A DNA stretch of 64,000 nucleotides from a virus. Its lineage: Duplodnaviria; Heunggongvirae; Uroviricota; Caudoviricetes. A program made the position numbers and the translations under genes. This document shows, piece by piece, positions 957 through 57,678 of the stretch; position 1 is the stretch's first letter, and every line of letters starts with the position of its first letter. Below the pieces are notes generated by a model that did no database searches, was not told the DNA's origin, and saw only the letters and a program-made list of their open reading frames with translations. The stretch is from IMG/VR virus record IMGVR_UViG_2576861193_000002; one strand, 5' to 3'.

Positions 957-1151
957 ATGAGATATGACAATGTTAAACCATGTCCATTTTGTGGTTGTCC
1001 ATCAGTAACGGTGAAAGCCATTTCAGGATATTACCGAGCGAAGTGTAACGGATGCGAATCCCGAACCGGTTATGGTGGAAGTGAAAAAGAAGCACTCGAA
1101 AGATGGAATAAACGAACCACTGGAAATAATAATGGAGGTGTTCATGTATAA
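957..1151 (+). CDS. ralR: Lar/RalR restriction-alleviation protein
   Basis: 64 aa MRYDNVKPCPFCGCPSV..., Cys-rich; internal start of ORF 918..1151. Confidence 0.8.
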   Translation: MRYDNVKPCPFCGCPSVTVKAISGYYRAKCNGCESRTGYGGSEKEALERWNKRTTGNNNGGVHV

Positions 1152-1353
1152 AATTACCGCCACTATTGAAAAGGAAGGTGGCACTCCTACTAACTGGACA
1201 AGATATTCAAAATCTAAACTAACGAAATCAGAATGCGAAAAAATGCTCTCAGGTAAAAAAGAAGCAGGCGTTTCCAGAGAGCAGAAAGTAAAACTGATAA
1301 ATTTTAATTGCGAGAAACTTCAGTCCTCGAGAATTGCATTGTATTCAAATTAA
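1144..1353 (+). CDS. ydaC: Rac small protein YdaC/RcbA
   Basis: 69 aa MYKITATIEKEGG...; internal start of ORF 1072..1353. Confidence 0.7.
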   Translation: MYKITATIEKEGGTPTNWTRYSKSKLTKSECEKMLSGKKEAGVSREQKVKLINFNCEKLQSSRIALYSN

Positions 1354-5632: not shown

Positions 5633-5662
5633 CAAAAAAAAGCCGACTCATCAAAGTCGGCG
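5633..5662 (-). terminator. rho-independent terminator downstream of zntB (possibly bidirectional)
   Basis: GCCGACTcatcaaaGTCGGC hairpin flanked by A-run on plus strand, T-run on minus. Confidence 0.5.
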
Positions 5663-5850
5663 TCGTACGAATCAATTGTGCTATGCAGTAATTCAAAAAA
5701 GGAAGTAAGACAATATGGAGCGCAACGCCCATCGCTTGACGTTGCATTCACCTGCAAGAGAGATATTGCCCTGAATGGGTAGAGAGTTTATTGACTTCGC
5801 TCAAACTTTGCGGCGTTTTTGTATACAGACAGCCGGAAAAATTGCTTTTG

Positions 5851-10806: not shown

Positions 10807-13800
10807 TTACCAAACACCAATAATAATTTTACCACCACTAGGAAGATTTACCGTAATGCCGTTATTGTTAATAATTACCCGTCCGTCACTATTGCGTACA
10901 TCGAAATTTTGATTGCCTTTAACAATGACGTTACCCCTTACGGTGACTTCGTTGAATTGCGCCCATCCATCTTTGTTAATCATCCAACCTTTTGAGTCTT
11001 GAACAAATACGGTTGACTGGATTTGCTGCGCTATTTTTGCAGTACCGATAGATCCGTCTTTAATAAACGCTTCTTTAACATACATTGCATCATTGGTGGT
11101 ATAGAAAGGTGATGTGTATGTGCCGTTTGCTGCGGTCATCAACACGAAGCGGTCAACGAGGAAAATACACTGCGATTGAACGTTAGTGCCGCTACCAGTC
11201 AGCCCAAGAGACATACCTGTTGCATACTTCATGCCGTTGTTGTCGGTTGCCAGCTTGATAGAGTACGTCGCATCAACATTACCTTTGAAGTCGGTTAACG
11301 CTTTCGACGTCGTCTGTATCGCTGTTGTGTTCCCGTTAACGGTCACTGTTAGCTGATCGATTTTGCTTGATAATGCCTCGTCAGCCGTCGCCATTGCCTG
11401 CGACCATTCTGTAATATTTGAGTTTACAGAATCGAAAGACGCTGAGATCTGGCCAAATTTTTCCGCGCTTGATGCTTCATGCGTAGAAAGTGCCGTTGAC
11501 ACCTCTGATACCTTCGAATTAATCGTACTGGTAAGCGATGAGTTAAGACTACTGATTGCGTCAGTACGGGCCTTCGTTTCGTCTGCAATAGCCTTATCAA
11601 TACGGGTTACGTTACTTGTCACCTTACTATCAAGCGTGGAAATTGATGCGTTCACTCCGCTGATAGCCTGGGCGCGGGCGCTTGATTCGTCGGCAATAGC
11701 CTGATCCAGCCTGCTAACTTCAGATTCAGTGTTGTTTTCAAGCGTGCTAATACTTGCATTCACTCCACTGATAGCTTCAGTTCTTGCGCTTGTCTCATCT
11801 GCAATGGCTTTATCAAGACGGCTTATTCTTGAATCCGTTTTCTTGTCTAGCGCTGACACTGAGGCATTTACTCCGCTGATAGCCTCGCTGCGTGCGCTGG
11901 TTTCGTCTGCAATTGCCCTATCAAGGCGGTTGACGCTTGCTTCCGTCTTCCTATCAAGATCGGTGATCGATGCGTTTACGGAGCTAATGGCTTCCGCTGT
12001 GGCTTTTTTCTCCTCTGCTATAACATTGTCAATACGGTCAATTTGCGCGTTGGTTTCTTTGCGGCCTTTCTTGTATTGGGCCGTGAGAGTAACCCGCGTG
12101 TTGGTTTGAGCAATAGAGTTGTTGATAAGTGCGATTGAGGCGTTTTGCAGACTTGCTTTAGTCTGATTTATTTCGTCGCTGTTTTTGTCAACGTTATTTT
12201 CAACAGTGCCAAGCTCCGCGCTGATGCCCGATATTGCCTGTGCACGGGCGCTTGATTCATCTGCAATTGCCTGATCAAGACGTTTAACGCTGGCGTTTGT
12301 GCTATTTTCAAGCGTTGTTAAATCAGCTTTAACCTCTGTTATTGCGGCGCTTCTTGCCTGCGTTTCATCTGATATTGCTTTATCAAGACGGGAAACGCTC
12401 GCGTCAGTTTTGCTTTCAAGATTGCTTATTGAGGCGTTAACGTCGCTAATGGCCTGGGTGCGGGCACTGGTTTCATCTGCAACCGCTTGATCCAGTCTGC
12501 TTACTTCTGATTCTGTATTGTTTTCAAGTGTGCTAATACTTGCATTCACGCTACTGATAGCGTCTGTGCGTGCTTTTGTTTCGTCTGCTATCGCTTTATC
12601 AATGCGGTTAATGTTGCTTGTAACTTTGCCGTCAAGCGTGGAAATTGAGGTATTCACGCCGCTGATGGCTTCAGTTCTTGCACTGGTTTCATCTGCAATT
12701 GCCTGATCCAAGCGTTTTACGCTGGCGTCAGTTTTCTTGTCTAGCGTTGAAATACTTGCATTTACGTCGCTGATGGCTTGAGTCCGCGCGCTAGTCTCGT
12801 CAGCGATTGCTTGATCAAGGCGGTTAACGCTTGCGTCAGTTTTCTTATCAAGATTGCTTATTGAAGCGTTTACACCGTTAATAGCTTCAGCGCGGGCGCT
12901 GGCCTCGTCAGCTACTGCGCGCTGCACGTTAGAAATCTGACCTTTAAGGTTGGAGTCCATCGTATTCATTTCTGCTGTGATGGTTTCCAGTGATTCCGCT
13001 GTCGCTTTTTTCTCTTCAGCGATAACGTTGTCAATGCGGTCGATTTCCGCTTTAGTCTCTGTCCTGCCTTTCTTGTACTGAGCGGTAAGAGTTACGCGCG
13101 TGTTTGTCTGTGCAAGTGAGTTATTAATAAGAGCAAGTGACGCGTTTTGCAGGCTTGCTTTTGCTTGCGCCAGTTCGCTGCCAACTTTTTCGCTGGACAC
13201 TTCTAATGAGTCAATTCTTGCCTCATGCTGTCCAATATCATCGGCGTTTTCCTCAACCTTTTTATAAAGATCTTCCGTTTCTTTTTTCAGTGTGTCCGTA
13301 TCAGCTTTTATGGCCCCTGTTTCTGTGATTAGGCCGTCCGTATCAATCCTCAAATCGTCAGTGATGTTTGTCAGGTTGTCCGTGTCAACCCTCAAATCGT
13401 CAGTGATGTTTGTCAGGTTATCAGTTGCAGTTTTGAGGTTGTCGGTAGCAGTTTTAAGGTCATTTGTAGCGCTTTCGATAAGATCAGCGCGGTCGCCAAG
13501 ATCTTTAATGTCGCTAATCATCCCCTTAAACTGTTCTGAATTAATTACGTCTTTTGTGACGTAGTCGCTAATTTCATCGAAGTTTTCAGTTGGTTTGCCT
13601 GATGCCTCAACGAAATCTGACACGCCAAAAGCGTTACGTGTACGAATATAAACGTAATAGGTGTGCCCCGTGTTCATGCCGCCAAAAGTCCACTGATAGC
13701 CGCGCCCGGTAAACTGCGCTGATGTGGTTACTTTTGATGGATCTGTGATCTGGTTTTCACCTGCGAAGTAAAATTCGTATGCTGTATCAGTGGTCAGGGT

Positions 13801-50994: not shown

Positions 50995-51087
50995 TCCATT
51001 TTGTATACTTTTTTAAAATATTTTATATGACATTGATATTTAAACAATAAATAACGTTTTCTGTTTACGTTTTGGTGTTTTCCAGGC

Positions 51088-51112
51088 AAAGAAAAGCCGC
51101 CATCCGGCGGCT
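51088..51112 (-). terminator. terminator after repressor gene
   Basis: GCCGCCatccGGCGGC hairpin + T-run on minus strand, just after cI stop. Confidence 0.45.
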
Positions 51113-51117
51113 AGTGT

Positions 51118-51765
51118 TTATGGCAGGTTTACGATCTTCGCATCCACTACCACGCCTAAGATTTTTGATTCTGGATTCATAGGGATCGGCGGATACAGCG
51201 GATTCAGCGAACGCAAAAGTTTTCTACCTCCATCAATAATCAACTGTTTAAACGTCGGTATCTGCCCTTCCTCCAATTGGGCTATAACCAGTTTTCCGTC
51301 AATAGCTGGCGCGTGCGGATCGACAAGTATCATCGTCCCAGCTGGTATACTCAATCCTTGCGGCGCGTTCATTGATTCGCCTTTAGCTACCAGCCAATAA
51401 CTATCATCTGAACAAATAACGCTAGTAGTAACGTGTGGTAATGTTGATCGCCTTGCATCTTCCATATTGTTTACTACATCCTTCCAGTCAACAACCGGGT
51501 AACTGCCTAAATCACGCGGTGGCGCTCCAGGCAACGTGTTAGAAACAGAATCATCAATGACCATTCCATCATGTGTGACAGTGAACTGCCGACGCCCAAG
51601 CGCCCGCATAATCCGCGCAATGTCTTCAAGATTTGGCTCGCGGCGACCGTTAAGCCAGTGTGACAAGCCGCCTTTTGTGATCCCCATGAGATCTGCCAAT
51701 GAGTCCTGACTCATGCCCTGCGCCCGCATGAGTTGTTTTGCTAAGTCATACCATTTTGTTTTCAT
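51118..51765 (-). CDS. CI-like repressor (HTH + S24 LexA-like autopeptidase)
   Basis: 215 aa; N-terminal HTH; C-terminal S24 domain with GESM and catalytic Lys region. Confidence 0.85.
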   Translation of the reverse strand: MKTKWYDLAKQLMRAQGMSQDSLADLMGITKGGLSHWLNGRREPNLEDIARIMRALGRRQFTVTHDGMVIDDSVSNTLPGAPPRDLGSYPVVDWKDVVNNMEDARRSTLPHVTTSVICSDDSYWLVAKGESMNAPQGLSIPAGTMILVDPHAPAIDGKLVIAQLEEGQIPTFKQLIIDGGRKLLRSLNPLYPPIPMNPESKILGVVVDAKIVNLP

Positions 51766-51834
51766 GTCGCTACCCTATAATCTAAAAAATTTTGATGCAA
51801 GTCACAAAATGTAATTTTCAATCCTTGACCTGTT

Positions 51835-51862
51835 AACGCCATTCTGTAAACTTGCAGACAAG
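51835..51862 (+). promoter_or_regulatory. PR-like promoter divergent from repressor gene
   Basis: TTGACC-16 bp-TAAACT; overlaps GCCATTCTGTAAAC operator-like motif. Confidence 0.3.
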
Positions 51863-51930
51863 GTAAGTCCATAGTTGCAATGATGCAAGGAAAAAGATAA
51901 GGGAAAGCACAAAAGGCACATACCTTAAAA

Positions 51931-51963
51931 GCTCTTTAAAAATCCGGTGTCGCTGCGAAGCGA
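51931..51963 (+). promoter_or_regulatory. candidate nutR (boxA-like + GNRA hairpin)
   Basis: GCTCTTTAAAAAT then UCGCU-GCGA-AGCGA stem-loop; parallels candidate nutL. Confidence 0.3.
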
Positions 51964-52071
51964 AAAACAAATATCACGCAACGGCGGGATCTGTTCAGCG
52001 GTCAGTCACTGCTATCTAATGCTAATTGGATACCCGCCAGCGCGTTCACTCTAACCATAGGAGAAAGAAAC

Positions 52072-52317
52072 ATGTATTACGTTCGCAAGGCTTTTGATAT
52101 TCGCCTGAATAACAATGATCATGTGCAAAAACTCATCTTAATTGCACTGGCAACAAAGGCCGGATGCAACGGCAAAAGCGAAGTAACGCCGGAAGAAATC
52201 GCTGAAATGTGCGAAATTCCGTTACGTGACACTATCTCTGCACTGCATCAACTGAAAAGAAGCGGCCTAATCAGTCAGCTGCCAGGTTTCTTCTGTGTTT
52301 ATAAGTTAATGTTTTAG
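52072..52317 (+). CDS. winged-helix DNA-binding protein (early regulator)
   Basis: 81 aa; AGGAGA RBS; first gene of rightward operon. Confidence 0.5.
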   Translation: MYYVRKAFDIRLNNNDHVQKLILIALATKAGCNGKSEVTPEEIAEMCEIPLRDTISALHQLKRSGLISQLPGFFCVYKLMF

Positions 52318-52323
52318 TTCGTC

Positions 52324-53325
52324 ATGAGGTTAATGCTTATGAGTATGCGGCTAATGGTAGAAGTCTTCCATACTGAGGTCGGCAACCCAATGCACAAACT
52401 GGTGCTGTTAAAGTTGGCTGATAACGCTAACGATAACGGAGAGTGTTACCCTTCTTACCAGCACATAGCGAAGCAATGCGAAATAAACAAAAGCACGGCA
52501 ATGAGAGCAATCGAGGCTCTTTGCAAAAAAGGTTTGTTACTAAAACAGCCTCGATATTTAATCGGAGGGAAAGAACAAACGAGCAATTTCTATGTAATCG
52601 TTTTACCTTCACTGTCAGGTAGTGGCACAAAGCAACCGGGGGTAGTGGCAGAGAGCAACCAGGGTAGTGGCACAAAGCAACCGGGGGTAGTGGCAGAGAG
52701 CAACCCTAATCAGTCATATATAACCAGTAAAGAGAACATTAAAGATATACCCCCTTGTATCCCCCCAGAAGAAAAACATGTCAATCAGGATGGCGTAAAC
52801 GAAGCGGCATTGCGTTGCCTTGCCTTCTACAACGACAAGGCAGGATGCAAATATCGTGATGCAAAACCATTCATCGAACTACTGACAGAAACAAAAACAC
52901 GTAAAGCGTATACGGAGGATGAGATCACATTAGTGATTGAGTGGGCTTTAACTCAATGGCGTAACCGTGGTGGAACACCTAAGCCTATCAACATTTGCAG
53001 GGTAACTAAGTTTGATGGGTATCTTGCTGATGCTGAACAATGGCGCAAGCTGTCAGCCACTGCAAACGCTGCCGACGTAGTGGAAGCATTTAACAGCACG
53101 TTTGATGGCCTGTTGCCACCTACTGAACTGGATCGGGATCTTGAACGAAAGATCTATGCGTTCACTGACTACCTGAAAGACAAAAGCATTAACGGCTTTG
53201 TCGCCTACTTCGAAACGTTCAAAAACACGGCTTCAGATTTTTACTTAGGCAATGGCTTTACTGCGACACTTGATTTCCTGCTTAAACCAAAAACGCTACG
53301 TGATACACGCGCTGGCGCTCTTTGA
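52324..53325 (+). CDS. replication initiator O-like protein
   Basis: 333 aa; N-terminal winged-helix; internal linker encoded by iteron repeats. Confidence 0.6.
   Translation: MRLMLMSMRLMVEVFHTEVGNPMHKLVLLKLADNANDNGECYPSYQHIAKQCEINKSTAMRAIEALCKKGLLLKQPRYLIGGKEQTSNFYVIVLPSLSGSGTKQPGVVAESNQGSGTKQPGVVAESNPNQSYITSKENIKDIPPCIPPEEKHVNQDGVNEAALRCLAFYNDKAGCKYRDAKPFIELLTETKTRKAYTEDEITLVIEWALTQWRNRGGTPKPINICRVTKFDGYLADAEQWRKLSATANAADVVEAFNSTFDGLLPPTELDRDLERKIYAFTDYLKDKSINGFVAYFETFKNTASDFYLGNGFTATLDFLLKPKTLRDTRAGAL
52619..52705. repeat. four ~19-bp iterons inside O-like gene (candidate origin)
   Basis: GTAGTGGCA(CAA/GAG)AGCAACC four times at 22-23 bp spacing; coordinates approximate. Confidence 0.5.
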
Positions 53326-53457
53326 CCAACCACGATCCGAAAAAACCCAAAATAACACGCAAAACAAGCTCGCTAGCGAGATAAATCGCATGTAGTGCTA
53401 CACTTGCATGCCTTTTGCGATTAGCTCGTTAGAGAGCGTTTTAGAGAGGATTTCAAA

Positions 53458-53559
53458 ATGGACGGTAAACGCGTTTTCGCCCTGGCTTTTGCCATCGCCG
53501 CTGCAATAGCTGTTAACGTCGCCTTGTTCGGCGGTTTGTTCCTTCTCGTTAATCCATAA
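53458..53559 (+). CDS. small hydrophobic peptide (33 aa)
   Basis: GAGAGG RBS; MDGKRVFALAFAIAAAIAVNVALFGGLFLLVNP; below ORF cutoff. Confidence 0.25.
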   Translation: MDGKRVFALAFAIAAAIAVNVALFGGLFLLVNP

Positions 53560-53678
53560 CCTACCTACCAGTCTGTAAATCAAAAATTAGCCACCTGAGA
53601 GCGTCTATAACGCAATAAGACACTGCAACCTGTGCAAACTGGTTACGCGGTGGGATTTTTGCGTTGTAGAGCGTTTTA

Positions 53679-55760
53679 TTGATTGTATATATGCAAAAGC
53701 AAATTACTAAATACGAGGTATTAATGATGTCTAGATATTTTGTATCGATAAGAGGAAGTAAATTTTTTGCAAAAATTGATGAAGGAATGGTGTTTATGCG
53801 GAAGCGTAAATATCAAACGTGGGATCGTTGTGGTAAAAAAAGCGAGTTTGTACGCGCGGTGGCCGGTGGCTATTGGAAGGAAATAACAGCGGCGGAAGCT
53901 GGCGATTTTAAGTACGCTGATTGCAGCCAGTGCGCGGAGAACTGGCCTGAATTATTTGATTATCATCCTGATGGGTATCTGATTAGCAAGGTTAAGCGGG
54001 GTACGGGAAAGAGTTTAATTAAACCTGGCGGTATAATTCGCGGAACAGTAAGTTCTCAGGGAAATTTATATATTGGTATAAATGGTCATTATTATCAATT
54101 ATCTCGCGTAGTATATGAAATGTTTAACGGCCCTATTCCTGATGGTTACGTGATAAAGAATGATAATAAGTCATGCACAAAAATAGAAAACCTGAAATTA
54201 ATATCACGGAACGGAAAAATAACAAAGCATAATGTTATTGGTAAAAGCGGAATCAGAGGTGTTTATTGGAATAAGAAAAATAATAAATGGATGGCAAATG
54301 TTAGTTACGATTATTTAGGTTGTTTCGATAATATCAACGACGCAATAAACGCGTGTATCATGGGTGAAATTAAACGTTACGGCAGGCAAATGAACCACTT
54401 CCCTGATTATATCTCACCAGAGGAAGAGGAGCGCATTAAACAGCGTTATTATGAAGGTGACGAAATGAAACAGATCAAAATTAACACTAAACCTCCTGAA
54501 CCTGAATTTAAATACAACACATTCAGGTTTAAAAAGCGCGATATTAGAATCAACGGAAACAATTATATAAGCCTGGTAGATCTATTCCGGGCGATGGGTG
54601 GAAGTAGTAGCGAGCAGTTCAGGCAGCAGATCGACAAATTCGAAGATGTTCCGGTGTTTGATTATTTCCTTAACCGTGGCGAGGACTACGAAGACGAATA
54701 CTTTGCACCTCCGTTAATGGCGCAAATGTTCGTACAGCGGTTGGGCAACGCTTGCGACGGCGTGGAACTGCTTAACACTTACATTGCATATTGCAACGTC
54801 ATGGCGGCAGCAGATGACCAGGCTGATAGCGGGCAGGTGGAAGACCTGAAAGGCCAAGTGAAAGCGGCTTGCGGCAAGATCAAGGAACTGGAACAGGAGA
54901 ACAGGGAAAAACAATCGACTATCGATCAAATCACTCGAGATAAAGCGCAAGCAACGTTGTACGACCTCAATAGCTATTACCGAAAATATATCGACGAGTG
55001 CGCTGAACGCATGAGGGTTGAACATCAACGCGACAACATGGAGGGGCAGATCAGCGAATTGCAGGGACTGCTTAACGTGGCAAGAGAGGATCGCAATAAC
55101 TATCAAGATCGGGCGAACTACTGGAACCATCAATATAACCAGGCAAATAAAGCATTTGGGGAGGAACAGGATAAACGCCAGAAATTAGAAAGAGAAAACG
55201 ACAACCTGGTAAAAACTAATTGCGAACTACGCCAAAAACTCAACGCTGCAAATGACGAAGACGCAAAAGCGAAAGCTGCGGCAGACAAACAAACAATCAA
55301 CGACCTTCGCGCAGATCTGGAGGAAGCAAAAGAAACAATCAATGCGCAACAACAGGAGGCACGCAACAAGGCTCTGGCTATCAAGGGATATCAGCTTAAA
55401 GTGGCAGAACTTGAGGACGATAAACGGGAACTGCAAAACAATCTGAATATCTTGCAAACTGGTCATAATATCCTGCTGGATCGCTACAACAAGCTAACTG
55501 CTCGCAACATGCGCCGCCGCGCAGCACAAAAACGGTATATGGGTGATCTGCACAATAACCACGTAACTGATACGCTTGAGTGGATGCAGGCAATAAAAGG
55601 TGCTGGCGACTATTACAAACAACGCCAACAGCGCAACCAGGAGCGTTATCGTAAGCTGATAATGGCATTGCAAGACAAAGTAAAAGAATTGCTGTACCGC
55701 CTCGATAAAAAGCCAGAAGGCGGATTCTTTAGCAAGGTTAAAGGTTTATTTAACCATTGA
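53679..55760 (+). CDS. multidomain protein: degenerate HNH-AP2 module + KilA-N/Bro-N-like domain + ~300-aa coiled coil
   Basis: 693 aa; AP2-like SGIRGVYWNKKNNKWMANVSY; HNH His positions replaced; FRFKKRDIRINGNNYISLVDLFRAMGG; heptad-rich C-terminus; start uncertain. Confidence 0.55.
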   Translation: MIVYMQKQITKYEVLMMSRYFVSIRGSKFFAKIDEGMVFMRKRKYQTWDRCGKKSEFVRAVAGGYWKEITAAEAGDFKYADCSQCAENWPELFDYHPDGYLISKVKRGTGKSLIKPGGIIRGTVSSQGNLYIGINGHYYQLSRVVYEMFNGPIPDGYVIKNDNKSCTKIENLKLISRNGKITKHNVIGKSGIRGVYWNKKNNKWMANVSYDYLGCFDNINDAINACIMGEIKRYGRQMNHFPDYISPEEEERIKQRYYEGDEMKQIKINTKPPEPEFKYNTFRFKKRDIRINGNNYISLVDLFRAMGGSSSEQFRQQIDKFEDVPVFDYFLNRGEDYEDEYFAPPLMAQMFVQRLGNACDGVELLNTYIAYCNVMAAADDQADSGQVEDLKGQVKAACGKIKELEQENREKQSTIDQITRDKAQATLYDLNSYYRKYIDECAERMRVEHQRDNMEGQISELQGLLNVAREDRNNYQDRANYWNHQYNQANKAFGEEQDKRQKLERENDNLVKTNCELRQKLNAANDEDAKAKAAADKQTINDLRADLEEAKETINAQQQEARNKALAIKGYQLKVAELEDDKRELQNNLNILQTGHNILLDRYNKLTARNMRRRAAQKRYMGDLHNNHVTDTLEWMQAIKGAGDYYKQRQQRNQERYRKLIMALQDKVKELLYRLDKKPEGGFFSKVKGLFNH

Positions 55761-55841: not shown

Positions 55842-56525
55842 ATGAGTGACTTAATGGTTTTTGATGCTGTTAAGATGAATAGTCTTGAAATTGCAGAATT
55901 AACGGGAAGTGATCACAAGGATATTAAACGGAGTATTTACAGACTGATTAAGAAGGGAATAATTCAAAATTCGCCAATGGCGAAAGTTGAGAATAAACAA
56001 TCACTTAGCCCTAATAGATTTTCTGATGTTTACGTCTTTGAGGGCGAGCAAGGAAAACGAGATAGTATCATTGTCGTTGCTCAAAACTGCCCTGAATTTA
56101 CGGCGCGGCTTGTTGATCGCTGGCAGGAACTTGAAAAACGGGTACAGCAAAACTCTCCTGCAATTCCTCAAACATTAAGCGAAGCGTTGCGCCTTGCTGC
56201 CGATCTTGCTGAGGAAAAGGAACGGCTTGCGCTGGTTAATAAGGAACTTGCGCCAAAAGCGGCTGTATGTGACGCGATAGTCAAAAACGATATGCACCGC
56301 ACGGCTTCAGAGGTAGCTAAACCGCTGGGAATGTCAGCCGTAAAATTAAACAGAAAACTTTCGGCTGTTGGTGTTTACGATCTTCGCTGTCGCCGCCGTG
56401 TATTCAGTCAGTGGTTTATTGATGAGGGGTACGGTGAAATGAGGGTAACTCACGATGGATATGAGCAGGCTGTATTCACTGCTAAAGGACAAGTATGGAT
56501 CACTGAGCTTTTAACTTGTAACTAA
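55842..56525 (+). CDS. antirepressor-like protein (Rha/Ant N-terminal + KilAC-like C-terminal)
   Basis: 227 aa; domain architecture typical of phage antirepressors. Confidence 0.6.
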   Translation: MSDLMVFDAVKMNSLEIAELTGSDHKDIKRSIYRLIKKGIIQNSPMAKVENKQSLSPNRFSDVYVFEGEQGKRDSIIVVAQNCPEFTARLVDRWQELEKRVQQNSPAIPQTLSEALRLAADLAEEKERLALVNKELAPKAAVCDAIVKNDMHRTASEVAKPLGMSAVKLNRKLSAVGVYDLRCRRRVFSQWFIDEGYGEMRVTHDGYEQAVFTAKGQVWITELLTCN

Positions 56526-56559: not shown

Positions 56560-57678
56560 ATGTCACAAAGAAAGATCAGCGATGAACAGCTAATCGCTGA
56601 ATATAACAACGGTTTAACGTACAAGCAGATCGCTGAAAAATATGGCATGTCAAAACGCAACGTCGAACGCCTGGGCGCAAAACTGGCGAAACGCGGTTTA
56701 TTATCAACGCGCCGCGCTCCTGGTTTTGGTGTCAATGGCGAGTCGTTGCTAGTCGATAAGAACGGCAATGTGATCATGCGTTGGATTAAAACAGCCCGTG
56801 ACCGCGACGAAATGGAACAGTTAATGGAAGCGGCCCGCGACGCTTTCACGGATGAAATACCACGCGCGGAGGCTGTGCCAGTGCCTGAAATTGATTTTCA
56901 AAAAAGCCTGGCCCTTTATCCGGTGTTTGATCTGCATATCGGGGCTCTTGCCCATAAAGCTGAATGCGGTGAGAGCTACGACACTGGGATCGCTGAACGC
57001 GTGCTAAATAACTTCTTTGATTATGCTGTTGGCGCTGCTCCTATGAGTGAAAAAGCAGTCTTACTTCTCGGTGGCGACCTGCTTCACACTGACGGATTGT
57101 TACCAGTGACGCCATCAAGCAATCACGTTCTTGATTGCGATTCGCGCTACGCAAAACTTGTTTATGTGGCGATCCGGTCTGTCCGGCGGGCGGTCGGAAA
57201 GATGTTGCTAAATCATAAGGATGTGGAAATCCAGGTGTTATCAGGGAATCATGACCAGTCTGGTATGATTTGGCTACGTGCGGCGCTGGCGGCTTTTTAC
57301 GAAGATGAACCGCGCGTGACGGTTGATGTGTCACCTGCTATTGTCCACCACACACAGTACGGCAAAACATTCCTTGCTTACCACCACGGGCACACTATCA
57401 AAAAGCCGGAAAATTTATTGTCTGCTTGCGTCTCTGACTGGCGGGAAGACTTTGGCAAGTCTGCTGCGGTTTACGCTCATTGCGGGCACTGGCACCATCA
57501 ACGGCTAATCGAATCATCGTTAGGCGTTGTTGAGTATCACGGCACGTTAGCGGGTAAAGACGCTTACTCAACTAATGGCGGCTGGCGGTCGCGGCGTCTG
57601 GCAGCGGTTATTATTTACAGCCAGGATCATGGGGAGATCGGGCGCTTTGTTTATTACCCTGAATTTTCCATTTTGTAA
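56560..57678 (+). CDS. calcineurin-like metallophosphoesterase with N-terminal HTH
   Basis: 372 aa; FDLHIG, GGDLLHTD, GNHD, GHWHH motifs; N-terminal LTYKQIAEKYGMSKRNVERL. Confidence 0.55.
   Translation: MSQRKISDEQLIAEYNNGLTYKQIAEKYGMSKRNVERLGAKLAKRGLLSTRRAPGFGVNGESLLVDKNGNVIMRWIKTARDRDEMEQLMEAARDAFTDEIPRAEAVPVPEIDFQKSLALYPVFDLHIGALAHKAECGESYDTGIAERVLNNFFDYAVGAAPMSEKAVLLLGGDLLHTDGLLPVTPSSNHVLDCDSRYAKLVYVAIRSVRRAVGKMLLNHKDVEIQVLSGNHDQSGMIWLRAALAAFYEDEPRVTVDVSPAIVHHTQYGKTFLAYHHGHTIKKPENLLSACVSDWREDFGKSAAVYAHCGHWHHQRLIESSLGVVEYHGTLAGKDAYSTNGGWRSRRLAAVIIYSQDHGEIGRFVYYPEFSIL

What the first reader, a model, noticed from the sequence alone, without database searches (positions are those of the whole stretch)
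52619..52705. Four iterons embedded in the O-like initiator gene, a candidate replication origin
GTAGTGGCA(CAA/GAG)AGCAACC is repeated four times at 22-23 bp spacing and encodes the repeated peptide SGTKQPGVVAESN in the linker of the O-like protein, mirroring the lambda ori-within-O arrangement.
Basis: partly seen in the sequence, partly recalled or inferred. Interest (0 to 1): 0.45.

Follow-up and report, generated by a model that had tools for sequence, protein, structure and literature searches.

The report
Prophage replication origin inside initiator gene
Four 20-bp repeats inside the replication-initiator gene of an mEp021-like E. coli prophage are very probably that protein's own binding sites at the phage replication origin, the arrangement known from lambda and P22, so this is a well-supported but ordinary find.

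Summary
Window 52618-52705 carries four copies of GGTAGTGGCA(CAA/GAG)AGCAACC at 23/22/23-bp spacing, against 0.06 expected by chance. They lie in the linker-coding part of a 333-aa initiator gene (52324-53325).

The origin reading is supported in silico.
- The 22/23-bp units are read in two reading frames, so the repeat is kept as DNA, not as peptide.
- Each unit is a dyad (GTGNC-N5-GNNAC).
- In 13 related phages and prophages the dyad has three variants (G/C, T/A, A/T), changed on both half-sites.
- In 114 related proteins each variant goes with its own recognition-helix residues, while sequence on both sides reassorts.
- Relatives with a different N-terminal domain (Lin1244_N) carry different repeats (4 x GGGTCATGA, 11-bp spacing) at the same place.
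- The least stable 40-mer of the gene (73% AT, 52706-52750) lies directly after the last repeat.
- The initiator's C-terminus resembles P22 gp18. A DnaB-type helicase 57% identical to P22 gp12 lies at 57697-59112.

The initiator is HTH_36, not lambda-O family, so it works like lambda/P22 ori without being homologous to lambda O. No origin activity has been tested. Verdict: new member of a known kind, modest interest.

The parts
52324..53325 (+). Replication initiator gene (333-aa ORF; the start used in relatives is the ATG at 52339, MSMRL..., 328 aa)
   Evidence: ORF. Pfam HTH_36 at aa 21-72, E 1.3e-14, 54 bits against a cut-off of 25. PHROGs 'replication initiation protein / O-like' families 428, 8540, 391 and 345. 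Annotated 'putative replication protein' or 'DNA replication protein O' in mEp021 and mEp554.
52348..52599 (+). Coding region of the N-terminal winged-helix DNA-binding domain (aa 9-92)
   Evidence: AlphaFold model (model numbering = ORF numbering minus 6): helices 3-12, 16-28, 39-46 and 50-62, strands 66-69 and 83-86, pLDDT about 66-80. Foldseek matches are all winged-helix DNA binders, with E no better than 5e-3.
52489..52527 (+). Coding region of the predicted recognition helix (K56-K68, KSTAMRAIEALCK); with N55 and L73 it holds the residues that differ between iteron classes
   Evidence: Helix 50-62 of the model. The variable columns of the N-domain are positions 21, 46, 51, 55, 57, 63, 64, 65, 68 and 73. 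The signature at 55/57/64/65/68/73 maps one-to-one onto iteron class in 114 proteins.
52618..52637 (+). Iteron 1: GGTAGTGGCACAAAGCAACC (imperfect dyad GTGGC-N5-GCAAC)
52641..52660 (+). Iteron 2: GGTAGTGGCAGAGAGCAACC, read in a different frame from iteron 1
   Evidence: The frame difference follows from the 23-bp offset and the translation.
52663..52682 (+). Iteron 3 (identical to iteron 1)
52686..52705 (+). Iteron 4 (identical to iteron 2)
52706..52750 (+). AT-rich stretch (73% AT), the candidate DNA-unwinding element; it starts with the motif AATCAGTCA, which also follows the last repeat in P22
   Evidence: GC falls to 0.25 at 52710-52749. This is the least stable 40-mer of the gene and in the lowest 0.36% of all 40-mers of the window. 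CAGTCATATATAACCAGTAAAGAGAA is identical in all 13 HTH_36-type relatives.
53065..53322 (+). Coding region of the C-terminal segment (aa 248-333), homologous to the C-terminus of P22 gp18; inferred helicase-recruiting part
   Evidence: BLASTP against P22 gp18: 33% identity over 90 aa, E 1e-12. This part is shared by HTH_36-type and Lin1244_N-type initiators of the group.
57697..59112 (+). Phage DnaB-type replicative helicase gene (471 aa), the presumed partner of the initiator
   Evidence: Pfam DnaB_C E 1.3e-75 and DnaB N-domain E 8e-12. 57% identity to P22 gp12 over 444 aa. NCBIfam DnaB and phage_DnaB matches, below their equivalog cut-offs.

Best explanation
The four 20-bp repeats are iterons: binding sites for dimers of the initiator protein that is encoded around them. 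Together with the AT-rich stretch next to them they form the replication origin of this mEp021-like (mEpimmI group) prophage.

Proposed sequence of events:
1. After derepression, rightward early transcription from the cI-proximal region makes the initiator.
2. Its N-terminal winged-helix domain binds each dyad GTGGC-N5-GCAAC.
3. Four sites spaced about two helical turns apart (22.5 bp) assemble a bent, O-some-like nucleoprotein complex.
4. This destabilises the neighbouring 45-bp AT-rich stretch (52706-52750).
5. The gp18-like C-terminus of the initiator brings in the phage's own DnaB-type helicase (57697-59112), after which host primase and polymerase take over.

Shown here: the repeats, their DNA-level conservation, their co-variation with the recognition helix, the AT-rich neighbour, and the homologies of the C-terminus and the helicase. 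Inferred: binding, unwinding, helicase recruitment and origin activity.
For: - The repeat is real and non-random.
- Units are 22/23 bp apart, so neighbouring units are read in different frames (GSGTKQP versus GVVAESN). The similarity is kept at the DNA level.
- All 13 HTH_36-type relatives keep the repeats at the same gene position with 23/22/23 spacing (12 of the 13 by regex; RM9245's second unit was read by eye and spaced by hand).
- Dyad positions 8 and 16 occur as G/C (18 iterons), T/A (21) and A/T (9). They are complementary in 48 of 51 iterons, so changes are compensated on both half-sites.
- Ten of the eleven variable columns among the first 92 residues lie in aa 46-73; nine belong to the N-domain and the tenth, aa 98, is already in the linker; the eleventh is aa 21.
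- Among 114 cluster representatives the helix-3 signature maps one-to-one onto iteron class: 27 A, 36 B, 50 C and one hybrid protein. The hybrid also has hybrid iterons.
- Residues just upstream (21/46/51) and the segment just downstream (IKDI/IKNN/LNKD) reassort, the downstream segment among all three classes (LNKD only in A and B) and the upstream signatures each between two. The coupling is therefore more than linkage.
- Initiators of mEp515, MagusPhagus, MIN12 and UMNK88 share the C-terminal two thirds but have a Lin1244_N N-domain. They carry four (A/G)GGTCATGA repeats at 11-bp spacing plus an AT-rich run at the equivalent place.
- More distant HTH_36 'O' proteins (SfV, Min27, Stx2a_1447, Serratia BZS1) have their own 21-25-bp dyad repeats 260-420 nt into the gene.
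- The AT-rich least-stable segment lies directly 3' of iteron 4, as in lambda and P22.
- Copy number varies only in steps of two units (45 bp, in frame): 2, 4 or 6.
- The C-terminus resembles P22 gp18 and the helicase resembles P22 gp12.
- No other copy of the iteron exists in the window.
Against: - No experiment: neither binding nor origin activity has been shown for this phage group. The one paper describing the group does not mention an origin.
- The class A dyad in this window is imperfect (4 of 5 pairs, G7/A17).
- The compensatory changes rest on few independent events, because iterons within one genome evolve in concert and the relatives are close (70-98% protein identity).
- The structure model is of low overall confidence (mean pLDDT 56).
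- The helicase gene is 4.4 kb away rather than adjacent as in P22.
- Promoter-like matches in the region are no more frequent than in shuffles, so transcriptional activation of the origin is only assumed.
Confidence: 0.8

Rival explanations
1. The repeats are initiator-binding sites, but they serve mainly autoregulation or copy control (handcuffing, or a roadblock to rightward transcription). The site where replication actually starts lies elsewhere, for instance in the repeat-bearing intergenic region 53326-53680 or near the helicase gene.
For: Plasmid iterons are known to do both jobs (established knowledge). The intergenic region downstream holds a duplicated 27-28-nt element and inverted repeats that are conserved in relatives.
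Against: The least stable DNA of the gene lies directly beside the iterons. The layout matches the mapped or annotated origins of lambda and P22 position for position. No iteron copy exists anywhere else in the window. The duplicated downstream element sits just before two ORF starts and looks like a translation or transcription signal.
Confidence: 0.1
2. The repeat is only a duplicated flexible-linker peptide, made by slippage and kept or tolerated at the protein level, with no DNA function.
For: The 45-bp unit is duplicated perfectly. Copy number varies between 2, 4 and 6. The segment is predicted to be disordered.
Against: The 20-bp unit recurs within each 45-bp unit in a second reading frame, giving unrelated peptides. 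Peptides differ radically between classes (SGTKQPGVVAESN, SVRETPGVVSERH, SVTVTPGVVTQSH) while the DNA dyad and spacing are preserved. The repeat class tracks recognition-helix residues.
Confidence: 0.03
3. The dyads act as RNA or single-strand DNA hairpins, for example by pausing ribosomes or RNA polymerase within the initiator mRNA.
For: Dyad symmetry with compensatory changes is also what a conserved stem would show.
Against: The RNA fold of 52610-52715 is no more stable than shuffles (z = -0.11), and the minimum-energy structure does not use the intra-iteron stems. Rfam has no match at the locus. A hairpin model does not explain co-variation with a DNA-binding helix.
Confidence: 0.02

Closest known systems
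Phage lambda ori-lambda inside gene O (and Stx-phage origins with six iterons)
   Same: Four roughly 18-20-bp dyad-symmetric iterons at about two-turn spacing (lambda 20/24/23 bp; here 23/22/23). They lie in the middle of the initiator gene and are followed at once by an AT-rich stretch (PMC7466680). Copy number can vary: 6 in Stx phages (PMC7466680), and 2 to 6 here.
   Different: The initiator here is Pfam HTH_36, whereas lambda O is Phage_rep_O. BLASTP finds no similarity. There is no P-type helicase loader, and the partner is a phage DnaB-type helicase. The iteron sequence is unrelated.
Salmonella phage P22 ori inside gene 18, with gene 12 (DnaB-type helicase)
   Same: The origin is annotated inside the initiator gene. 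The C-terminal 90 aa of the initiator are homologous (33% identity, E 1e-12) and the helicase is 57% identical. The motif AATCAGTCA plus an AT-rich run plus a C-run follows the last repeat in both.
   Different: The P22 gp18 N-domain is Phage_rep_O with different iterons (TCGGTAAAA type). Genes 18 and 12 are adjacent in P22, but here they are 4.4 kb apart with variable genes between them.
Phage L gene 18, with six imprecise 11-bp repeats proposed as its origin (PMC8022706)
   Same: It parallels the Lin1244_N-type relatives of this prophage (mEp515, MagusPhagus), which have four 11-bp-spaced GGGTCATGA repeats in the initiator gene.
   Different: The repeat sequence is different. Whether L gp18 has a Lin1244_N domain was not tested here. 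This comparison does not concern the window's own allele.
HTH_36-type 'O' / replication proteins of SfV (orf39), Min27 and other Stx phages, and Serratia phage BZS1
   Same: Same Pfam family for the N-domain, 46-52% identity to the window protein over the N-domain, and their own 21-25-bp dyad repeats at the same position in the gene. The SfV repeats (GGTAGTGCAGGAGTTGCACC) even share the GGTAGTG...CACC frame.
   Different: Different dyad cores, different C-terminal domains and partners (Min27 has a large 'P' gene). None has a tested origin as far as the searched literature shows.
Bacillus phage SPP1 oriL inside gene 38 (replisome organizer)
   Same: Direct repeats bound by the origin-binding protein lie within its own gene, next to an AT-rich unwinding element. 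The helicase is of the DnaB family (PMC6316719).
   Different: Unrelated proteins, a separate helicase loader (gp39), a second origin (oriR), and a Gram-positive host.

Membership tests
Lambda-type origin (ori-lambda / O-P module) | Several direct repeats of about 18-20 bp with internal dyad symmetry, inside the initiator gene | tested here: met
   Four 20-bp units with the dyad GTGGC-N5-GCAAC at codons 99-128. The lambda iterons are annotated.
Lambda-type origin (ori-lambda / O-P module) | AT-rich region directly beside the iterons | tested here: met
   52706-52750 is 73% AT and is the least stable 40-mer of the gene.
Lambda-type origin (ori-lambda / O-P module) | Initiator belongs to the Phage_rep_O family (PF04492) | tested here: not met
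   Pfam finds HTH_36 only. Lambda O and P22 gp18 both match PF04492. BLASTP against lambda O finds nothing significant.
Lambda-type origin (ori-lambda / O-P module) | P-type helicase loader that hijacks host DnaB | tested here: not met
   No such gene was found among the ORFs scanned or in the Pharokka-style annotation of the relative MagusPhagus. A phage DnaB-type helicase is present instead.
Lambda-type origin (ori-lambda / O-P module) | Origin activity and initiator binding | not testable with these tools
   This needs a plasmid replication assay, EMSA or footprinting.
P22 18/12-type replication module | Initiator C-terminus homologous to gp18 | tested here: met
   33% identity over 90 aa, E 1e-12.
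P22 18/12-type replication module | DnaB-type helicase homologous to gp12 | tested here: met
   57% identity over 444 aa; Pfam DnaB_C E 1e-75.
P22 18/12-type replication module | gp18-type (Phage_rep_O) origin-binding N-domain and P22-type iterons | tested here: not met
   The N-domain here is HTH_36, whereas P22 has PF04492. The iteron sequences are unrelated.
HTH_36 (PF13730) winged-helix initiators | Match to PF13730 above the gathering score | tested here: met
   54.1 bits against a cut-off of 25, E 1.3e-14, aa 21-72. All 120 nearest database clusters carry PF13730.
Iteron-type origins in general (plasmid RepA / pi type) | Iterons plus AT-rich element plus winged-helix initiator | tested here: met
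   The weak Foldseek matches include the staphylococcal plasmid RepA N-domains 4pql, 4pt7 and 5kbj.
Iteron-type origins in general (plasmid RepA / pi type) | DnaA boxes in the origin | tested here: not met
   No TTATCCACA with up to 1 mismatch on either strand in 52000-53700.

The most novel reading that the evidence does not exclude
The three iteron variants (dyad position 8/16 = G/C, T/A or A/T), each paired with its own recognition-helix residues (N55/S57/E64/A65/K68/L73; G-or-S55/S57/D64/A65/E68/I73; S55/R57/D64/S65/E68/I73), would be functionally distinct replicon specificities circulating within one immunity group of coliphages. A fourth, unrelated cassette (Lin1244_N domain plus 11-bp GGGTCATGA repeats) would plug into the same C-terminal and helicase module. 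If so, the group offers a ready-made natural allelic series for reading the DNA-recognition code of HTH_36 initiators, and it would give the poorly characterised Lin1244_N domain a function as an origin-binding domain.
Probability: 0.5. Interest if true: 0.45.

Novelty: new member of a known kind. Interest (0 to 1): 0.3.

Why it matters
- It places the probable replication origin of the mEpimmI (mEp021-like) coliphages. This gut-prevalent group was described in 2025 without any mention of an origin (PMC11893012).
- It shows that the group's replication module is a mosaic: an HTH_36 or Lin1244_N origin-binding cassette joined to a P22-type C-terminus and helicase.
- In practice it gives a roughly 150-bp fragment to test for origin function, for phage-derived vectors, and for predicting replicon compatibility between co-resident prophages.
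- It also gives annotators a caution: 'DNA replication protein O' is here a functional analogy, not homology to lambda O.
- Conceptually it adds another independent case of iterons embedded in the linker-coding part of the initiator gene, with unusually clean co-variation between protein and site.

Tried and rejected
- RNA-structure reading: the fold of 52610-52715 has z = -0.11 against shuffles, and Rfam has no family at the locus. Rejected.
- DnaA boxes: none within 1 mismatch in 52000-53700, so no evidence for DnaA dependence.
- Promoter and terminator scan of 51700-53750: 3 promoter-like and 3 terminator-like sites, no more than in shuffles. Not used as evidence.
- Sequence search of the initiator against PDB: nothing (best E 0.41).
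- Foldseek of the AlphaFold model against PDB: only generic winged-helix matches with E no better than 5e-3. This supports 'winged helix' and nothing more specific.
- The model's C-terminal 90 residues are of low confidence, so no structural statement is made about helicase recruitment.
- NCBIfam gives no family for the initiator, for the 81-aa upstream protein or for the Lin1244-type initiator.
- Direct homology to lambda O: rejected.
- A helicase loader was looked for among neighbouring ORFs and in the MagusPhagus annotation. None was recognised.
- The 372-aa protein always found just upstream of the helicase gene remains unassigned.
- The homologue search returned only close relatives among its best 120 (at least 70% identity). 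It deepened the co-variation table but not the structure prediction.

Full report
**Observation**

Window 52618-52705 contains four 20-bp units: GGTAGTGGCACAAAGCAACC, GGTAGTGGCAGAGAGCAACC, and the same pair repeated exactly. Start-to-start spacing is 23/22/23 bp (sequence; Tandem Repeats Finder gives period 23 x 3.9 and period 45 x 2.0 at 100% match). A search for GGTAGTGGCANNNAGCAACC allowing 3 mismatches finds these four sites and nothing else in 64 kb on either strand. Shuffles predict 0.06.

It lies in ORF 52324-53325 (+, 333 aa) and is translated as SGSGTKQPGVVAESNQGSGTKQPGVVAESN. Because 22 and 23 are not multiples of three, odd and even units are read in different frames (GGT AGT GGC ACA AAG CAA CCG versus G GTA GTG GCA GAG AGC AAC C). 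The same DNA motif therefore encodes two unrelated peptides, and only the 45-bp pair is in frame.

**The gene and its setting**

The ORF has an N-terminal Pfam HTH_36 domain (aa 21-72, E 1.3e-14) and matches PHROG families named 'replication initiation protein' or 'O-like'. It does not match Phage_rep_O, the family of lambda O and P22 gp18. BLASTP against lambda O finds nothing.

Upstream lie an S24-peptidase cI-type repressor on the other strand (51118-51765) and an 81-aa winged-helix ORF (52072-52317). ERF recombinase and SSB genes lie further left.

The window is an E. coli chromosome carrying a prophage of the mEp021-like 'mEpimmI' group. The region 51000-54000 is 90-93% identical to phages mEp554, mEp021, mEp010, mEp044, mEp013, mEp515 and MagusPhagus. 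The 2025 paper that defines this group never mentions iterons or an origin.

An AlphaFold model built on 38 close homologues has low overall confidence (mean pLDDT 56). It shows a winged helix-turn-helix domain (ORF residues about 9-92, pLDDT 66-80) and a segment with pLDDT below 50 from residue 95 to 154. That segment covers the codons of the iterons and of the AT-rich stretch. A confident helical domain follows (residues 155-244, pLDDT 85-92). Foldseek returns only winged-helix DNA binders, weakly.

**Close relatives: the repeats are conserved as DNA and co-vary with the recognition helix**

I fetched the locus from six phages and seven E. coli prophages with the same N-domain. All carry the repeats at the same place with the same 23/22/23 spacing (where the regex caught only one of RM9245's two units). 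The dyad core comes in three forms:
- Class A, GTGGC-N5-GCAAC: the window, mEp021, E21845, N1286.
- Class B, GTGTC-N5-GACAC: mEp554, Ecol244, KKa019, PAR, RM9245.
- Class C, GTGAC-N5-GTCAC mixed with GTGTC forms: mEp010, mEp013, mEp044, strain 190.

Over 51 iterons, positions 8 and 16 are G/C (18), T/A (21), A/T (9) or T/T (3). They are complementary in 48 of 51, so the change is made on both half-sites. The encoded linker peptides differ radically between classes (SGTKQPGVVAESN, SVRETPGVVSERH, SVTVTPGVVTQSH). The peptide is free to change while the DNA symmetry is kept.

In the first 92 residues, ten of eleven variable columns lie between residues 46 and 98, nine of them in 46-73. That span covers helix 2, the predicted recognition helix (K56-K68) and the first wing strand.

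The homologue search returned 120 clusters, all at least 70% identical and all HTH_36. In 114 of them I could read both the helix-3 residues and the linker peptide, which reports the diagnostic iteron bases. The signature at positions 55/57/64/65/68/73 maps one-to-one onto iteron class:
- NSEAKL (26, plus one NSESKL variant) with class A: 27.
- G/S-SDAEI with class B: 36.
- SRDSEI with class C: 50.
- One hybrid protein, SREEKL, with hybrid linker peptides. Its DNA, from a metagenome contig, indeed shows one A, one A/C hybrid and two C iterons.

By contrast, the residues just upstream (21/46/51) occur with more than one class: NQQ with A and B, NHE with B and C. The segment starting about 40 bp after the last iteron (IKDI, IKNN, LNKD types) reassorts too: IKDI and IKNN with all three classes, LNKD with A and B only. 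Recombination has therefore shuffled both flanks but not the helix-iteron pair, so physical linkage alone does not explain the association.

Copy number is 4 in 100 clusters, 2 in 10 and 6 in 4, always in steps of 45 bp.

**A different DNA-binding domain brings different repeats**

mEp515, MagusPhagus and prophages of strains MIN12 and UMNK88 share the C-terminal two thirds of the protein. Their N-domain is Lin1244_N (PF14297). At the equivalent place (nt 390-431 of the gene) they have four (A/G)GGTCATGA repeats at 11-bp spacing. These again are not a multiple of three, so each is read in a different frame. A long A/T- and purine-rich run follows. Domain and repeats are thus exchanged together as a cassette.

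**More distant relatives**

HTH_36-type 'O' or replication proteins of SfV, Stx2a_1447, Min27 and Serratia phage BZS1 are 32-52% identical over the N-domain. Each has its own 21-25-bp dyad repeats 260-420 nt into the gene. Examples are GGTAGTGCAGGAGTTGCACC in SfV and GGTGGGGCAGGAGCTGCCC in Min27.

**The neighbouring AT-rich element**

Directly after iteron 4, 52706-52750 is 73% AT. The 40-mer at 52710 is the least stable of the gene and lies in the lowest 0.36% of the window by nearest-neighbour energy. Its first 26 bp (CAGTCATATATAACCAGTAAAGAGAA) are identical in all 13 HTH_36-type loci. With such close relatives this alone proves little. The start of this stretch (AATCAGTCA, then an A/T-rich run, then a run of C) resembles what follows the last repeat in P22. 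No DnaA box is present.

**Partner proteins**

The last 90 residues of the initiator are homologous to the C-terminus of P22 gp18 (33% identity, E 1e-12). ORF 57697-59112 is a DnaB-family helicase (Pfam DnaB_C E 1e-75) that is 57% identical to P22 gp12.

In lambda the C-terminal part of O contacts P. In P22 the gp18/gp12 pair replaces O/P and host DnaB (established knowledge; PMC8022706 summarises gp12 as a DnaB-type helicase). I therefore infer that the C-terminus here recruits the phage helicase.

No P-like or DnaC-like loader was recognised. Unlike in P22, initiator and helicase genes are 4.4 kb apart. Between them lie a 693-aa HNH-domain protein, an Ant/Rha-type protein, and a conserved 372-aa protein of unclear function that sits just upstream of the helicase in the relatives whose fetched stretch reached that far.

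**Mechanism proposed**

Initiator dimers bind the four dyads, which sit about two helical turns apart and so form a compact bent complex. This strains and opens the adjoining AT-rich stretch. The gp18-like C-terminus loads the phage DnaB-type helicase, and host primase and Pol III complete the replisome. Binding, opening and loading are inferred by analogy with lambda (PMC7466680) and P22. The anatomy and the co-variation are shown here.

**Rivals**

A pure protein-linker repeat is contradicted by the two-frame reading and the DNA-level dyad conservation. RNA hairpins are not supported (z = -0.11) and would not explain co-variation with a DNA-binding helix. It cannot be excluded in silico that the sites serve mainly autoregulation and that replication starts elsewhere. 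Against that stand the adjacent least-stable DNA, the absence of any other iteron copy, and the positional match with lambda and P22.

**Comparison and novelty**

[quoted passage not shown] It is known for lambda and Stx phages (PMC7466680), P22 and L (PMC8022706) and SPP1 oriL (PMC6316719).

This locus works like them but is not a member of the lambda-O family: the origin-binding domain is HTH_36, and the C-terminus and helicase are of P22 type. It is a new member of a known kind. In the literature I could search, it has not been described for the mEpimmI group.

The clean three-state iteron and helix-3 series, and the alternative Lin1244_N cassette, are the most interesting by-products.

**Dead ends**

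The PDB sequence search, NCBIfam, the promoter scan and Rfam at the locus gave nothing usable.

Noticed in passing
window 52072-52317 (+): An 81-aa winged-helix ORF is the first gene rightward of the cI-type repressor. It resembles the N-domain of phage replication initiators (phrog_4617, E 8e-9) and is labelled 'replication initiation protein' in MagusPhagus. No such ORF is annotated upstream of the initiator gene in prophages Ecol_244, KKa019 and PAR; KKa019 and PAR have a small MarR-like ORF downstream of the initiator gene instead. It could be the Cro analogue or an accessory origin or iteron regulator.
   Followed up: partly
L005 3221-3261, L006 1603-1643, L022 and L023 (nt 390-431 of the initiator gene): Lin1244_N-type initiators of the same phage group carry four (A/G)GGTCATGA repeats at 11-bp spacing. 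An A/T- and purine-rich run follows in all four; the small palindrome ATACAC-N3-GTGTAT follows in three, not in MIN12. This is probably their own origin. It suggests that Lin1244_N is an origin-binding domain.
   Followed up: partly
L024 1790-1877 (metagenome contig ERZ27297715 k141_718854): One relative has a hybrid recognition helix (R57 as in class C; E64, K68 and L73 as in class A) together with a hybrid iteron array (A, A/C, C, C). It may be a natural recombinant caught in a specificity switch, or an assembly chimera.
   Followed up: partly
window 56560-57678 (+): A 372-aa protein sits directly upstream of the helicase gene here and in the relatives whose fetched stretch reached that far (complete in MagusPhagus, cut at the edge in about ten others). 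It is in phrog_704 'DNA repair exonuclease' (E 5e-139) and has a weak N-terminal HTH. By eye it has metallophosphoesterase-like motifs (GGDLLH, GNHD, GHWHH), but there is no Pfam, NCBIfam or PDB sequence match. It is possibly part of the replication module.
   Followed up: partly
window 53679-55760 (+) and 55842-56525 (+): A 693-aa protein with an HNH_3 domain and a long charged, probably coiled-coil tail, and an Ant/Rha-type antirepressor, fill the interval between initiator and helicase genes. This interval differs in content between relatives (zinc-ribbon protein, Rha, other genes) and looks like a variable 'moron' slot.
   Followed up: no
window 53416-53443 and 53651-53678 (+): A 28-nt element (..GTTAGAGAGCGTTTTA / ..GTTGTAGAGCGTTTTA) is duplicated 235 bp apart, each copy just before an ORF start. 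The same duplication occurs in mEp515 (L005 3989-4015 and 4223-4249). It may be a shared translation-initiation or regulatory signal, and these phages are Nus-dependent.
   Followed up: no
window 1150-1328 (-) and 5638-5755 (-); 61570-62784 (-); 63023-63952 (+): Rfam finds the RalA antitoxin sRNA (rac-prophage type) and the FnrS sRNA. Window 4500-10500 matches zntB, dbpA, ynaL and ydaN of E. coli and then phage tail-fibre genes. A tyrosine integrase lies at 61570-62784, followed by a host PAS-GGDEF gene. The window is therefore an E. coli chromosome with the mEp021-like prophage inserted next to zntB, close to rac remnants.
   Followed up: partly
window 11756-11950, 12652-12912, 13336-13470 (found on + strand): There are 108-bp (1.8-2.4 copies, 73-79% match), 42-bp (2 copies, 95%) and 21-bp tandem repeats in what, by synteny with relatives, should be the tail-fibre region. 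They are probably repeated fibre-shaft modules.
   Followed up: no
window 52706-52720; L021 1921-1935; L017 1853-1905; L019 and L020: The motif AA(T/C)CAGTCA directly follows the last repeat in this prophage and P22, and follows within about 5-25 bp in SfV, Min27 and BZS1. In SfV, Min27 and BZS1 GAACCAGTCA (or a one-off variant) recurs 2-3 times, about 12 bp apart in SfV. It is either a conserved origin element or a conserved peptide (PNQS / EPV).
   Followed up: partly
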